Origin: Escherichia phage mistaenkt | Sequence record: MN850587.1 | Length of the DNA: 64,000 bases | Direction: 5' to 3' (one strand) | In this document: piece by piece, positions 13,478 to 24,258 of the stretch | How the letters are laid out: each line of letters begins with the position of its first letter | Position numbering within the stretch: position 1 is the first letter of the stretch | Program-made: the position numbers and the translations under genes | The notes under the pieces: model-generated | Told to the model about the DNA's origin: nothing | Seen by the model: only the letters and a program-made list of their open reading frames with translations | Databases searched by the model: none

Positions 13478-13734
13478 AATGCCCTCTTTTAAGTACCTAT
13501 TAAACTTAATCTGTTTTCTTTACGTATTCTATACGTATAACTTTAAAGCTTCTTAAAAGCTATTAAAAATCTTTTAAGGGTTTTAAAGAAACTGTATAGT
13601 TAATCTGTAAAGGGAGTCTTTTAAGTTAAAACCCACTTCGCAAAGATTAACACCTTGTCAAGTGAATTGTCAACTTGCTTTTTGAAACTTTTTGCAGTAA
13701 TGTATTGAGTCAATGATTTTGAGAGGGAGTAAAA

Positions 13735-16434: not shown

Positions 16435-16946
16435 TGCAAGATTGTGGTTTTACTCATGAGCAATTAAAATCATGGATTCACTACGACCCCTTAACAGGTG
16501 TCTTAACTTGGATTGGTAGACCTCCTAACAGTGGTAGGGTGGTTATAGGCAGTCAAGCTGGGTCAATCAAAAGGACAAAATCTGGTGTGTATCTTCATAC
16601 ACAGATACTAGGTTACAGGACAGGGAATCACCGTATTGCTTGGTTCTGGATGACTGGAAAATGGCCTGATAAACATATTGACCATAAGGATGGAGATGGT
16701 CTAAACAATGCTTGGGAGAATCTTAGAGAAGCCACGAAAGAGCAGAACATGGCTAACAGGAGACAACCTAGAACATCAAAGAGTTTAAAAGGCACAAGTA
16801 GAAGCAAATCTGGAAAGTGGATTGCACAGATTAACCATAATGGAAAGACTAACCATATTGGCACATACATGACCGAGCAAGAAGCCCACGAAGCTTACTG
16901 TGAAGCTGCTATAAAACTCCACGGAGATTTTGCAAAACTTAGTTGA
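16431..16946 (+). CDS. HNH homing endonuclease with C-terminal AP2-like DNA-binding domain
   Basis: 171 aa; HIDHKDGDGLNNAWENLREATKEQN (HNH); C-terminal GKWIAQINHNGKTNHIGTYMTEQEAHEAY (AP2-like); start overlaps polymerase stop (ATGA). Confidence 0.7.
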   Translation: MMQDCGFTHEQLKSWIHYDPLTGVLTWIGRPPNSGRVVIGSQAGSIKRTKSGVYLHTQILGYRTGNHRIAWFWMTGKWPDKHIDHKDGDGLNNAWENLREATKEQNMANRRQPRTSKSLKGTSRSKSGKWIAQINHNGKTNHIGTYMTEQEAHEAYCEAAIKLHGDFAKLS

Positions 16947-16998
16947 CAAGGTGCTCATGGAAGAGTACCTTATACTATATATTGTATAGGAGACTTGT

Positions 16999-18437: not shown

Positions 18438-19538
18438 ATGACAATTCTGTACAAACAAAATAAAGATGGTTCTTTCAACGTCTGGTCATGCGTTGCTGTA
18501 GGTGACAAAGTGGTTACCACGTATGGCAAAGAAAACGGTAAAATGATGTTTGAAGAGTACACAGCAGAACCGAAGAACATCGGTAAAAAGAATGAGCGTA
18601 ATGCTGAACAGCAAGCTCTCTTTGAAGTTACTGCTAAGTATAAGAAGCAAGTTGACCGTAAAGGTTATGCTTATTCAAAATCTGCTGCACAGGAAGTTGA
18701 GAAGGTTGGTGTACAGCTTGCTCATGATGCTTCCAAGGTTAGCCACAAAAAATATCTGAAATTTCCTGCTGATGCTCAACCGAAACTTGATGGTGTTCGT
18801 TGCAGAATTTCAAGGGATGTTGATTCAGTAAGCTTCACAGCTTATTCTCGTGAAAATACTGTTTACAATGTGCCTGAAGAGTTAATTCCTGATTTGCTTC
18901 TCATGCTTAAGTGTCACCCACAAGTTGAAGACTTTGACGGTGAGATTTATGCTCATGGCTGGGACTTAGAAGATATTGTATCCATGATTAAGAATGCTGA
19001 CAATCCAGACCGTCACCTTCTTAAATTCTACTGGTATGATATCTGTGACAATACTAAATCATGGCCTGAGCGACGAGAGGTTATTGATAACTCACCTATC
19101 GTTGAACTTGGTGATGCTTGCAGGGTTGTTCCTGTACAGACTATCCGTGTAAACTCTTGGGAAGAGTTCGACAAAGCCCATGATAATTGGGTTAAGCTGA
19201 AGTTTGAAGGGGCTATGTACCGTTCAATCTCTGAAGAATCTTTCTACGAGTGTAGTCACCGTTCATACTTCTTAATCAAGCATAAGAAGATGCACACTGA
19301 AGAGTTTAAAGTAACTGGTGTGAAGACTGATAAGCGTGGACATGGTAAGTTTGTTGTAGAGACTCTTCCTAACGTCTTTGTGGATGTTTCATGGAAGACT
19401 ACCCATGAGAAGAAACAGTATCTTGCTGAACACCCTGAAGAGTTTATCGGGAAGCCTTTGACGGTTCAGTTCCAGAAGATGACTCGCAAGGGGTCTTTGC
19501 AGTTCCCTGTTGGGTTAGTTATTAGAGATTATGAATAA
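18438..19538 (+). CDS. ATP-dependent DNA ligase (candidate)
   Basis: 366 aa; KxDGxR nucleotidyl-transferase motif I (PKLDGVRCRI), motif III-like FDGEIYAHG, motif IV-like EGAMYRS, motif V-like LIKHKK. Confidence 0.6.
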   Translation: MTILYKQNKDGSFNVWSCVAVGDKVVTTYGKENGKMMFEEYTAEPKNIGKKNERNAEQQALFEVTAKYKKQVDRKGYAYSKSAAQEVEKVGVQLAHDASKVSHKKYLKFPADAQPKLDGVRCRISRDVDSVSFTAYSRENTVYNVPEELIPDLLLMLKCHPQVEDFDGEIYAHGWDLEDIVSMIKNADNPDRHLLKFYWYDICDNTKSWPERREVIDNSPIVELGDACRVVPVQTIRVNSWEEFDKAHDNWVKLKFEGAMYRSISEESFYECSHRSYFLIKHKKMHTEEFKVTGVKTDKRGHGKFVVETLPNVFVDVSWKTTHEKKQYLAEHPEEFIGKPLTVQFQKMTRKGSLQFPVGLVIRDYE

Positions 19539-19544
19539 AAGTTG

Positions 19545-19572
19545 TTGACATACTCTCTCCGGTAGTTATACT
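19545..19572 (+). promoter_or_regulatory. Sigma70-like promoter TTGACA-N16-TATACT upstream of the secreted-protein gene
   Basis: -35 TTGACA at 19545-19550, -10 TATACT at 19567-19572; a 9-bp inverted repeat (CCGGTAGTT / AACTACCGG) brackets the -10 and predicted start. Confidence 0.45.
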
Positions 19573-19622
19573 AGCAATATAAAATTTGATATAGGAACTA
19601 CCGGATGAGTTAGGAGAAGAAA

Positions 19623-20003
19623 ATGAAAAAGATTATGGTAGGTGTCATTCTGGCAACTCTGAGTTTTGGTGCATCAGCTATGAAGATGCCTGAAGCAGAC
19701 TTTAGCAAGGTCTCTACAGAGGCTTGTCAGATTGTTCGTAAAGTCGTAACAGATGCTGGAGAGTTGGCTAAACCGTTATCTTCTCCAACTGTCATGGAAA
19801 TGTCTGACCGCATCACTGATTACAATTATCGTGTGATGGCAGATTACTACGAAGCTGTCTCTGATGCTATGGTCACTCAGGATATTGATTTGCTTGATGA
19901 CAAAGACATTGAGAAGGTTGAAGACACCAAGCGTGACATGATGGATGAAACTTTCAAAGGTGTTCATTATTTTGTTGAAAAGCGTACTTGTGTAGGTCTA
20001 TGA
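19623..20003 (+). CDS. Putative secreted/periplasmic protein (126 aa)
   Basis: N-terminal signal peptide MKKIMVGVILATLSFGASAMK; GGAGAAG RBS. Confidence 0.5.
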   Translation: MKKIMVGVILATLSFGASAMKMPEADFSKVSTEACQIVRKVVTDAGELAKPLSSPTVMEMSDRITDYNYRVMADYYEAVSDAMVTQDIDLLDDKDIEKVEDTKRDMMDETFKGVHYFVEKRTCVGL

Positions 20004-20004
20004 T

Positions 20005-20208
20005 ATGAAGAAGAATCGTTGCAAGAAGAACTATGGAGAAGTGCTTGACGATGAAGGTCATGTCATCTTCCGAGTTTACTGTGCAGATGACTCTGAAGTA
20101 GATAAAGCACTTGATGACTATATCAACGGTACTCGTGAAAACGTCAGAGCAACAAACATAGATTCATTGATTGACACTTCCAGAAAACGGAGGAAGAAAG
20201 ATGAATGA
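20005..20208 (+). CDS. Hypothetical small protein (67 aa)
   Basis: ORF track only. Confidence 0.35.
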   Translation: MKKNRCKKNYGEVLDDEGHVIFRVYCADDSEVDKALDDYINGTRENVRATNIDSLIDTSRKRRKKDE

Positions 20209-20500
20209 AGTCTTTGACCCTTACGCCCCACAAGATAAGTGGGAAGCTGATAGAGAGTATGAGATGGAAAGTTATATCTGCCCAATGGATGTAGACGAAA
20301 TGAGAGAGTTCGTTGCATTCCGTTTTGAAAAAGAAATTGAGAAAAGAAAACTTTCTCAGGCACAAGTTGCAAAGATTTGTGATATCTCTCAAAGTCGTGT
20401 TTCCAACATAGTCAATGGTACTGGAAAGATTACCCTTGAATACATGTTGAAAGCTTGTGAAAAACTTGGTGTTAACTTCAACTTAAGGCTGTCAGATTAA
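20201..20500 (+). CDS. Helix-turn-helix (XRE-like) DNA-binding protein
   Basis: LSQAQVAKICDISQSRVSNIVNG is a classic HTH; start trimmed to ATG at 20201 (GGAAGAAAG upstream). Confidence 0.55.
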   Translation: MNEVFDPYAPQDKWEADREYEMESYICPMDVDEMREFVAFRFEKEIEKRKLSQAQVAKICDISQSRVSNIVNGTGKITLEYMLKACEKLGVNFNLRLSD

Positions 20501-23582: not shown

Positions 23583-23606
23583 AAGGCTCCTTTTTACGGG
23601 AGCCTT
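23583..23606. terminator. Bidirectional intrinsic terminator between convergent thyA and the minus-strand structural block
   Basis: AAGGCTCC-8 nt loop-GGAGCCTT with T-runs on both strands. Confidence 0.7.
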
Positions 23607-24179: not shown

Positions 24180-24258
24180 TATGTCACCTCATCAGCCAAG
24201 ATGGTGAGAATACCTATGAAAATATTAACACCATCTTAACATTTAGTCAACAAATTGA

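What the first reader, a model, noticed from the sequence alone, without database searches (positions are those of the whole stretch)
19545..19604. Strong promoter bracketed by a 9-bp inverted repeat upstream of a secreted-protein gene
TTGACA-N16-TATACT is among the best sigma70 matches in the window. The perfect inverted repeat CCGGTAGTT ... AACTACCGG brackets the -10 and predicted start site, the geometry of a repressor operator or a 5'-UTR hairpin occluding the start. The downstream gene (19623-20003) encodes a signal-peptide protein.
Basis: seen in the sequence. Interest (0 to 1): 0.4.

Follow-up and report, generated by a model that had tools for sequence, protein, structure and literature searches.

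The report
Phage promoter fused to covarying stem-loop
A near-consensus host-type promoter in a Felix O1-like phage has a hairpin built into it whose base-pairing, not its sequence, is kept across relatives, which makes it a promoter/stem-loop cassette like those known from T4-type phages and not a repressor binding site.

Summary
TTGACA (19545-50), a 16-nt spacer and TATACT (19567-72) lie 6 nt after the DNA-ligase stop codon. They are bracketed by a perfect inverted repeat that is 10 bp, not 9: 19558-67 and 19596-605, with 28 nt between the arms.

The window is a Suspvirus, a Felix O1-like phage. In 14 orthologous cassettes from three genera the -35 is invariant and the -10 nearly so. The arms come in four different sequence versions at the same position. 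Eight of 10 stem pairs show compensatory double changes, and 91% of cells pair against 23-42% in shifted registers. Selection therefore acts on pairing, not on a protein recognition sequence.

The left arm lies upstream of the predicted start (~19579). The hairpin therefore cannot form in this promoter's own transcript, and it leaves the Shine-Dalgarno (SD) sequence and AUG free.

Other sigma70-like promoters in the window also carry embedded hairpins (p=0.00045 against coding controls). The junction is an indel and cassette-swap hotspot among relatives. This matches the PeSL elements of T4-like phages.

A conserved AT-rich palindrome in the loop (19577-95) is a better operator candidate. It could be bound by the operon's own XRE regulator.

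The exact role of the hairpin remains inferred. Interest is moderate to low.

The parts
18438..19538 (+). ATP-dependent DNA ligase gene. It is the upstream co-directional gene whose transcripts must read into the cassette.
   Evidence: ORF of 366 aa. Pfam DNA_ligase_A_M and DNA_ligase_OB_2. Annotated as DNA ligase in relatives. No terminator-like site lies between the gene and the promoter.
19523..19544 (+). AT-rich stretch upstream of the -35. It contains the ligase stop codon TAA (19536-19538). The motif AAAGTTG directly precedes TTGACA.
   Evidence: Sequence. AAA[G/A/T]TTGTTGACAT is conserved in 14 relatives. The same AAAGTTGTTGACA motif occurs at window promoters 51777(-) and 55801(-).
19545..19550 (+). 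-35 hexamer TTGACA
   Evidence: Invariant in 14 orthologous cassettes.
19567..19572 (+). -10 hexamer TATACT with a 16-nt spacer. The predicted transcription start is about A19579.
   Evidence: It is TATACT in 13 of 14 cassettes and TATGCT in Felix O1. The start site is inferred from the usual 7-nt distance and was not measured.
19558..19567 (+). Left arm of the stem, TCCGGTAGTT, in the promoter spacer. Its last base is the first base of the -10.
   Evidence: Covariation with the right arm across four arm versions.
19596..19605 (+). Right arm of the stem, AACTACCGGA, at about +18 to +27. It ends 6 nt before the SD.
   Evidence: RNA fold of the hairpin gives -17.1 kcal/mol, z = -4.35, with 0 of 200 shuffles as stable. 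Covariation.
19577..19595 (+). AT-rich imperfect palindrome ATATAAAATTTGATATAGG in the loop, overlapping the predicted start. It is a candidate operator for the operon's XRE regulator, or a conserved initial transcribed region.
   Evidence: Palindrome I2. Unique in the window. A recognisably similar element, TATA(c)AAAATTT(t)ATATAgg, lies downstream of TATACT in both cassette types in all three genera.
19612..19616 (+). Shine-Dalgarno AGGAG, 6 nt before the ATG
   Evidence: Sequence.
19623..20003 (+). First gene of the downstream unit: a 126-aa protein of unknown function with a signal-peptide-like N-terminus and two invariant Cys.
   Evidence: phrog_4332, unknown function. No Pfam hit. Ortholog alignment.
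20005..20208 (+). Second gene of the unit, 67 aa, unknown function
   Evidence: phrog_4473.
20201..20500 (+). XRE/Cro-type helix-turn-helix regulator, 99 aa from the ATG at 20201. It is a candidate binder of the inner palindrome.
   Evidence: phrog_1373 transcriptional regulator. Pfam HTH_3, 6.5e-12. Recognition helix invariant across genera.

Best explanation
This is a composite promoter/stem-loop cassette of the type described as PeSL (promoter-early stem-loop) in T4-like phages. Here it sits in a Felix O1-like phage (Ounavirinae, genus Suspvirus), at the junction between the DNA-ligase gene and a small operon encoding an exported protein, a 67-aa protein and an XRE regulator.

Shown:
- A near-consensus sigma70-type promoter has hexamers that are conserved across three genera.
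- A 10-bp stem is embedded in it, and its pairing is kept through compensatory changes in four sequence versions.
- The left arm lies upstream of the predicted start, and the SD and AUG lie outside the stem.
- Hairpins overlap several other sigma70-like promoters in the same genome.
- The junction is a hotspot of gene insertion and cassette replacement among relatives.

Inferred:
- Host RNA polymerase starts at about 19579 and transcribes the downstream operon.
- The complete hairpin forms only in RNA that reads through from the ligase gene, because no terminator intervenes. There it marks the 3' boundary of the upstream unit. It may attenuate read-through, or serve as a processing point and protective 3' hairpin, while the embedded promoter restarts transcription.
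- The promoter motif repeated between cassettes offers short homology for recombination, which would explain the shuffling at this spot.
- The AT-rich palindrome in the loop, overlapping +1, is a separate element and is probably the operator through which the operon's own XRE protein autoregulates.
For: Identity of the phage: the best match is 94% to Suspvirus phages EP1 and EcSzw.

Promoter conservation: the -35 is invariant and the -10 nearly so in 14 cassettes, while the spacer varies.

Covariation: there are four arm versions at the same register. They are TCCGGTAGTT (Suspvirus), CCTGACGGGT and CTTAGTGGGT (Mooglevirus), and TGGTGAGTA (Felixounavirus). In total, 91% of cells pair against 23-42% in registers shifted by 1-3 nt. 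Eight of 10 pairs show double changes. These include three consecutive compensatory pairs between two Mooglevirus versions, and a C-G to T-A change between Mordin and HP1.

Fold stability: z = -4.35 for the window and -5.71 for Mordin.

A class feature in this genome: 13 sigma70-like intergenic promoters have a mean MFE z of -1.79, against -0.57 for 150 coding controls. Mann-Whitney p = 0.00045, and 54% against 9% have z < -2. Examples with the same geometry are at 24250(-), 8865(-) and 16943(+). The hairpin at 24250(-) is conserved in three genera.

Not a generic property of consensus promoters: 98 unrelated IMG/VR phage promoters matching the same pattern are no more structured than their controls.

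Shuffling: the same gene is preceded by this cassette type or by a second type, in which a 13-bp repeat brackets the -35. Both types occur within Suspvirus and within Mooglevirus. Zero to two extra genes or repeat tracts are inserted between ligase and cassette.

Match to the PeSL description: stop codon in an AT-rich region, sigma70 promoter, stem-loop between the boxes or overlapping the -10, then SD and ATG (PMC2839356).

Prior annotation: the Felix O1 genome paper lists as terminators t42/t43 a hairpin with TTGACA in its loop. That hairpin corresponds to the window's promoter hairpin at 53766.
Against: - No transcription start or 3'-end data exist for any Felix O1-like phage in the searched literature, so both promoter use and read-through are inferred.
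- The hairpin is not a canonical intrinsic terminator. It has a 28-nt loop and no U-tract and was not flagged by the terminator scan. The phage uses canonical terminators elsewhere, so strong termination here is doubtful.
- Nothing distinguishes an RNA hairpin from a DNA-level structure. The stem is perfect Watson-Crick in the window. The apparent sense-strand advantage of promoter hairpins is not significant (p = 0.095). It is also matched by a general sense-strand bias in unrelated promoters that lack extra structure (69 of 97).
- My promoter set for the enrichment test was picked by eye.
- PeSLs were defined in T4-like phages, and their terminator activity was tested on one G/C-tract stem only.
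Confidence: 0.55

Rival explanations
1. The outer 10-bp inverted repeat is the operator of a dimeric repressor, for example the XRE protein encoded at 20201-20500. Binding there would shut the promoter.
For: The repeat brackets the -10 and the start site, and a Cro/C1-type regulator is encoded in the same operon.
Against: The arms occur in four unrelated sequence versions with compensatory changes, while the regulator's recognition helix is invariant. The half-site centres are 38 bp apart, far beyond a simple HTH dimer (established knowledge of lambda/434-type operators). The arm sequence is unique in the window. The hairpins I delimited at other promoters have unrelated sequences.
Confidence: 0.06
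2. The repeat acts at the DNA level. One possibility is cruciform or hairpin extrusion under negative supercoiling that switches the promoter on or off. Another is a recombination joint for cassette exchange, with no role for the RNA.
For: Covariation preserves complementarity on both strands equally. No strand asymmetry could be shown. The junction is a hotspot for insertion and cassette swaps. The PeSL authors mapped crossovers within the elements, in or beside the stem-loop.
Against: A 28-nt loop makes cruciform extrusion energetically and kinetically unfavourable (general knowledge, not tested). Recombination needs shared sequence, but the arms are the least conserved part of the cassette. 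Selection for pairing is not explained by recombination alone.
Confidence: 0.15
3. The hairpin is a 5'-UTR structure of the downstream mRNA, transcribed from a start upstream of 19558, and it controls translation or stability of the exported-protein gene.
For: The hairpin ends 6 nt before the SD. In read-through or processed RNA a 5'-proximal hairpin could stabilise the downstream message (general knowledge of 5' stem-loops such as ompA).
Against: The only good promoter places +1 inside the loop. The SD and AUG are unpaired in every fold, so there is no occlusion. No alternative promoter upstream scored well in the scan.
Confidence: 0.07
4. The hairpin is a chance palindrome, or a leftover of a past rearrangement, with no function beyond the promoter.
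For: Perfect repeats of 9 bp or more are not over-represented in the window as a whole (14 observed against 11.6 expected).
Against: P = 0.002 for the 84-nt region. Pairing is kept in four sequence versions with 8 of 10 pairs covarying.
Confidence: 0.02

Closest known systems
PeSL (promoter-early stem-loop) cassettes of T4-like phages phi1/RB49, PST/T4 and nt-1/KVP40 (Arbiol et al. 2010, PMC2839356; Comeau et al. 2014, PMC4122927)
   Same: The layout matches: the upstream gene's stop codon in an AT-rich stretch, a near-consensus sigma70 promoter, a stable stem-loop between the boxes or overlapping the -10, then SD and ATG. There are several copies per genome with different stems. The cassette is located at junctions where close relatives differ by gene insertions or replacements.
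   Different: The host lineage is different (Ounavirinae, not T4-like). The stem has no G-tract/C-tract or A3G3/C3T3 pattern. The loop is long (28 nt) and carries the -10, the start site and a conserved palindrome, and there is no U-tract. Terminator and promoter activities are untested here. Covariation of the stem, shown here, was not part of the PeSL description in the passages I read.
Classical phage or bacterial operators bound by HTH dimers (lambda/434 Cro-CI, LacI, LexA boxes)
   Same: An inverted repeat overlaps the core promoter, and an XRE-type regulator is encoded nearby.
   Different: For the outer repeat, the half-site centres are 38 bp apart, the sequence is not conserved while the pairing is, and the site is unique. 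The inner palindrome at 19577-95 does fit operator geometry and is conserved, but its binding is untested.
Intrinsic (Rho-independent) terminators
   Same: The stem-loop lies directly after a gene, and a related promoter hairpin was annotated as terminator t42/t43 in Felix O1.
   Different: The loop is 28 nt instead of 3-8, only 5 of the 10 stem pairs are G-C, and no U-tract follows. It was not detected by the terminator scan, which did find the phage's canonical terminators.
RNase III processing hairpins between genes of T7-like phages (from my own knowledge, not tested)
   Same: It is an intergenic hairpin in a polycistronic phage transcript. In Mordin the structure is a 10-bp lower stem, an internal loop and an 8-bp upper stem, which resembles T7 R sites.
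   Different: The upper stem is weak or absent in the window and in the Felix O1 versions, so a two-turn duplex is not conserved.

Membership tests
PeSL-type promoter/stem-loop cassette | Near-consensus sigma70-like promoter | tested here: met
   TTGACA-N16-TATACT, 11/12 match. The hexamers are conserved in 14 relatives. Activity was not measured.
PeSL-type promoter/stem-loop cassette | Stable stem-loop between the -35 and -10 or overlapping a box | tested here: met
   A 10-bp stem whose left arm sits in the spacer and ends in the -10. z = -4.35. Covariation.
PeSL-type promoter/stem-loop cassette | AT-rich region with the upstream gene's stop codon before the -35, and SD plus start codon at the 3' end | tested here: met
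   TAA at 19536-38 within ATGAATAAAAGTTG, AGGAG at 19612-16 and ATG at 19623.
PeSL-type promoter/stem-loop cassette | Repeated in the genome at many gene junctions | tested here: met
   Hairpins overlap promoters at 16943(+), 24250(-), 8865(-), 51777(-), 53766(-), 53674(-) and 55269(-). Enrichment p = 0.00045. The promoter set was hand-picked.
PeSL-type promoter/stem-loop cassette | Associated with insertion, deletion or replacement of genes between close relatives | tested here: met
   Two cassette types alternate within genera. Zero to two extra genes or repeat tracts lie at this junction.
PeSL-type promoter/stem-loop cassette | Stem-loop terminates or attenuates upstream transcription, and the promoter is active in vivo | not testable with these tools
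   This needs reporter fusions or Term-seq. The sequence lacks a U-tract, so strong termination is doubtful.
PeSL-type promoter/stem-loop cassette | Occurs in T4-like myoviruses (the taxon in which it was defined) | tested here: not met
   The window is Ounavirinae/Suspvirus. This is a matter of distribution, not a functional criterion.
Repressor operator (outer inverted repeat) | Half-site sequence conserved among phages that share the regulator | tested here: not met
   Four arm versions against an invariant recognition helix.
Repressor operator (outer inverted repeat) | Half-site spacing compatible with one dimer | tested here: not met
   The centres are 38 bp apart.
Repressor operator (inner palindrome 19577-95) | Conserved palindrome overlapping +1, with a cognate regulator nearby | tested here: inconclusive
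   It is conserved in both cassette types across three genera, unique in the window, and the regulator's helix is invariant. Binding is untested, and a conserved AT-rich initial transcribed region is an alternative.
Intrinsic terminator | G+C-rich stem, short loop and a 3' U-tract | tested here: not met
   The loop is 28 nt and the 3' flank is TGAGTTAGG. It is absent from the terminator scan.
Known RNA family (Rfam) | Match to a curated covariance model | tested here: not met
   No hit at E <= 1 in 19300-19800.

The most novel reading that the evidence does not exclude
The cassette may be a two-isoform switch. RNA that reads through from the ligase gene folds the stem, which presents the AT-rich loop for cleavage. 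The ligase message is thereby uncoupled from the downstream operon and is left with a protective 3' hairpin. RNA started at the embedded promoter lacks the left arm and is controlled only by the XRE protein at the loop-borne operator. Promoter-embedded hairpins would then be a general device in Felix O1-like phages for insulating adjacent transcription units without canonical terminators. The alternative DNA-level version is a supercoil-sensed cruciform that gates promoter use.
Probability: 0.12. Interest if true: 0.5.

Novelty: new member of a known kind. Interest (0 to 1): 0.3.

Why it matters
How Felix O1-like phages organise and time transcription is unknown. The 2010 genome paper says so explicitly, and the library held no paper pairing 'Felixounavirus' with 'transcription start', or 'Ounavirinae' with 'promoter' and 'stem-loop'.

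This site gives a clean, testable example. It has a conserved host-type promoter and an embedded stem whose pairing is maintained through at least four sequence replacements. That suggests the promoter/stem-loop cassettes described only for T4-like phages also operate in a second myovirus lineage used for Salmonella typing and biocontrol. It also suggests that the stem itself, and not only the promoter, is under selection.

There is a practical consequence for annotation as well. Such hairpins have been annotated as plain terminators (Felix O1 t42/t43) although they contain a promoter.

Tried and rejected
- An IMG/VR scan with GTTGTTGACAT-N14-18-TATACT returned mostly unrelated phages. It was useful only for seven Felix-like loci and as a control set.
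- By eye, many of those unrelated promoters seemed to carry repeats over the -10. The statistical test did not support this: mean z was -0.42 against -0.40 in controls. The idea that this is general to phage consensus promoters was dropped.
- I tried to use G-U pairs and the sense-versus-antisense stability difference to show an RNA-level structure. This was rejected. The difference is not significant on fixed windows, and the same sense bias occurs in unstructured promoters.
- MAFFT misplaced one gap in the window group. I corrected the register by hand and counted pairs in Python.
- The search for related loci with the downstream protein gave only two IMG/VR loci. The INPHARED collection was more useful.
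- An Rfam scan found nothing.
- I looked for further copies of the arm and of the inner palindrome in the window. There are none.
- I looked for covariation at two other promoter hairpins, 16943(+) and 24250(-). They are almost invariant across genera, so they are uninformative.
- RNase III-site reading: the two-stem shape is present in Mordin but not conserved.

Full report
**What is there**

The window is a Felix O1-like myovirus (Ounavirinae, genus Suspvirus). The 2.6 kb around the finding is 94% identical to phages EP1 and EcSzw-1/-2, and 80-84% identical to Mooglevirus and Felixounavirus genomes.

The finding sits in the 84-nt gap between the ATP-dependent DNA-ligase gene (18438-19538) and a 126-aa gene (19623-20003). 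The layout, is:
- the ligase stop codon TAA at 19536-38, inside an AT-rich stretch;
- TTGACA at 19545-50, a 16-nt spacer, and TATACT at 19567-72;
- a predicted start at about A19579;
- AGGAG at 19612-16 and ATG at 19623.

The inverted repeat is 10 bp, TCCGGTAGTT (19558-67) and AACTACCGGA (19596-605), with 28 nt between the arms. Inside the loop lies an imperfect AT-rich palindrome, ATATAAAATTTGATAT (19577-92).

**Is it more than chance?**

The promoter match of 11/12 is shared by only three intergenic sites in the window. Promoter-like matches as a class are not enriched over shuffles.

A perfect repeat of at least 10 bp with a loop of 40 nt or less arises in 0.2% of dinucleotide shuffles of the 84-nt region. 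Across the whole window such repeats are no more frequent than expected. The case therefore rests on position and conservation.

**Conservation and covariation**

I collected the orthologous junction from:
- four further Suspvirus genomes;
- Mooglevirus genomes Mordin, HP1, ESh20, ESh21, Henu11, Sf15 and Sf16;
- Felixounavirus-type genomes Felix O1, PMBT20, pEC-M719 and IMG/VR contigs.

In 14 distinct cassettes the -35 is invariant and the -10 is TATACT, or TATGCT in Felix O1. The motif AAAnTTGTTGACAT before them is also conserved.

The stem arms occupy the same register but occur in four different sequence versions:
- TCCGGTAGTT / AACTACCGGA;
- CCTGACGGGT / ACCCGTCAGG;
- CTTAGTGGGT / ACCCACTAG;
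- TGGTGAGTA / TACTCACCA.

After I corrected one misplaced gap by hand, 91% of cells form standard pairs, against 23-42% when the 3' partner is slid by 1-3 columns. Eight of 10 pairs show changes on both sides. Between the two Mooglevirus versions, three consecutive pairs changed compensatorily. Between Mordin and HP1 the outer pair went from C-G to T-A, and ESh20 is a mismatched intermediate.

The RNA folds are far more stable than shuffles for the window (z = -4.35) and Mordin (-5.71), but not for Felix O1 (-1.55). Pairing, not sequence, is what selection keeps.

**What this rules out**

An operator for a sequence-specific dimer is not compatible with four arm versions, because the only regulator in the operon keeps an invariant recognition helix. 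That regulator is an XRE/Cro-type HTH at 20201-20500, and its helix is ISQ(S/A)RVSNI. In addition, the half-site centres are 38 bp apart and the arm sequence is unique in the window.

A 5'-UTR hairpin that hides the start is also not supported. The left arm lies at -21 to -12, so RNA made from this promoter lacks it. The stem also stops 6 nt before the SD.

A canonical intrinsic terminator is not met either. The loop is 28 nt, there is no U-tract, and the terminator scan that found this phage's ordinary terminators did not call it. Rfam has no match.

**What it resembles**

Other sigma70-like promoters in the window also have a hairpin built into them:
- 16943(+), with the stem filling a 22-nt spacer;
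- 24250(-) and 8865(-), with the same geometry as here;
- 51777(-), 53766(-), 53674(-) and 55269(-), with the stem around the -35 and/or the spacer.

Thirteen such promoter windows are significantly more structured than 150 coding controls. Mean z is -1.79 against -0.57, Mann-Whitney p = 0.00045, and 54% against 9% fall below -2. I chose the promoter set by eye, which is a weakness.

As a control, 98 unrelated IMG/VR phage promoters matching GTTGTTGACAT-N14-18-TATACT are no more structured than neighbouring DNA. The property is therefore lineage-specific and is not a by-product of consensus promoters.

The architecture matches the PeSL elements of T4-like phages. [quoted passage not shown] They are proposed to attenuate upstream transcription and to mediate modular gene shuffling (PMC2839356; PMC4122927).

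The shuffling signature is present here too. The same downstream gene is preceded either by this cassette or by a second type, in which a 13-bp repeat (AAATAAGCTATAA / TTATAGCTTATTT) brackets the -35. Both types occur within Suspvirus and within Mooglevirus. The space between ligase and cassette holds nothing (window), a small hydrophobic ORF (Mordin, ESh21), or two genes plus repeat tracts (IMG/VR L005). Sf17, Mijalis and wV8 also carry an extra upstream gene and repeat tracts at this position. Felix O1 carries one cassette of each type separated by about 180 nt.

The Felix O1 genome paper does not list this promoter. It annotates a hairpin with TTGACA in its loop as terminators t42/t43, and that hairpin is the counterpart of the window's 53766 hairpin. 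I found no description of such composites, nor any start-site map, for Felix O1-like phages.

**Most likely mechanism**

Shown: a conserved promoter, a covarying stem, the geometry, the class enrichment, and a plastic junction.

Inferred: host RNA polymerase starts near 19579 and transcribes the operon. That operon encodes an exported 126-aa protein (phrog_4332), a 67-aa protein and the XRE regulator. The exported-protein call rests on an MKK, hydrophobic, A-x-A N-terminus and two invariant Cys.

The full hairpin forms only in RNA that runs through from the ligase gene, because no terminator intervenes. There it delimits the upstream unit, either by attenuating read-through or by providing a processing point and a protective 3' hairpin. 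Which of these applies cannot be decided from sequence.

I could not show that the structure acts as RNA and not as DNA. The stem is perfectly Watson-Crick. The sense-strand advantage I first saw is not significant, and it mirrors a general compositional bias.

**The inner palindrome**

Downstream of TATACT, both cassette types in all three genera keep a similar element, TATA(c)AAAATTT(t)ATATAgg. It overlaps the predicted +1 and is unique in the window. Together with the invariant recognition helix of the operon's XRE protein, this makes it a reasonable autoregulatory operator candidate. A conserved AT-rich initial transcribed region is an alternative.

**Expression timing**

In Felix O1, RT-PCR put genes 87 (probably the ortholog of the downstream gene) and 88 (ligase) both at maximal expression 25 min after infection. 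This does not separate the two transcription units.

**Verdict**

The element is a real, conserved regulatory feature. It is a sigma70-type promoter with an embedded stem-loop under structural selection, best filed as a PeSL-like cassette in a phage lineage where these had not been described. The promoter reading is supported, but the operator and UTR-occlusion readings of this repeat are not. Interest is moderate to low: it is a neat and testable case, but it belongs to a known kind and its specific function is unproven.

Noticed in passing
L004 2603-2890 (Felix O1); also L011 137-600, L012 100-600, L009 1-600, L005 1150-1500: In relatives, the space between the ligase side and the exported-protein gene holds G/T-rich degenerate repeat tracts (TGGTNTGGT...). 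These are interleaved with conserved hairpin modules such as CATCACTTAAGAGTCTT...AAGGGTTTTTAAGTGATG and GGGTAGTTAGTCTCAGCTACATTAAAATGAGACT. In Felix O1 a full promoter cassette fires into about 180 nt of this non-coding DNA, so a small non-coding RNA or another element may be made there. wV8 annotates part of it only as 'DR_4'.
   Followed up: partly
window 13478-13734 and 55653-55900: The two divergent intergenic regions carry tandem TTGACA boxes 12 nt apart (13673/13661 and 55801/55789, minus strand). They also carry long AT-rich hairpins with CTTAAAAGACTC-like modules related to the repeat modules seen in relatives. No good -10 follows the 13673/13661 TTGACA boxes (the 55801/55789 pair was not checked). 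These regions may be origins or special promoters.
   Followed up: no
window 16943-16976 (+); type B cassette in L004 2812-2846: In these promoters TTGACA and TATACT are 22-23 nt apart and the extra length is filled by a hairpin arm or a whole hairpin (AGGTGCTC-ATGGAA-GAGTACCT). This spacing is too long for a normal sigma70 promoter. Either a weaker -10 is used or the structure matters for spacing. The 16943 element is almost invariant from Suspvirus to Felix O1.
   Followed up: partly
window 24198-24250 (-): A promoter-embedded hairpin with the same geometry as the finding lies between the tail-fibre gene and the small gene preceding the holin. It is TTGACT-N17-TAATAT, with a 12-bp stem that includes two G-U pairs. 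It is conserved in Suspvirus, Felixounavirus and Mooglevirus, and ESh19 has one U-G to C-G change.
   Followed up: yes
L003 2648-2797 (Mordin); L139 ~326-400 (ESh21): Small, strongly hydrophobic ORFs are inserted between ligase and the cassette in Moogleviruses: 49 aa in Mordin, HP1 and ESh20, and a different ORF of about 25-30 aa in ESh21. They are absent from the window and are unannotated in Mordin.
   Followed up: no
window 23583-23606: A symmetric G+C-rich hairpin with T-runs on both strands lies at the point where the plus-strand block (ending with thymidylate synthase) meets the minus-strand block. It is a bidirectional terminator.
   Followed up: no
window 53743-53774 (-): A 9-bp perfect repeat, AAAGGGTAT / ATACCCTTT, encloses the -35 of a TTGACA-N17-TAATAT promoter in the tRNA region. 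Its Felix O1 counterpart was published as rho-independent terminators t42/t43 without mention of the promoter.
   Followed up: partly
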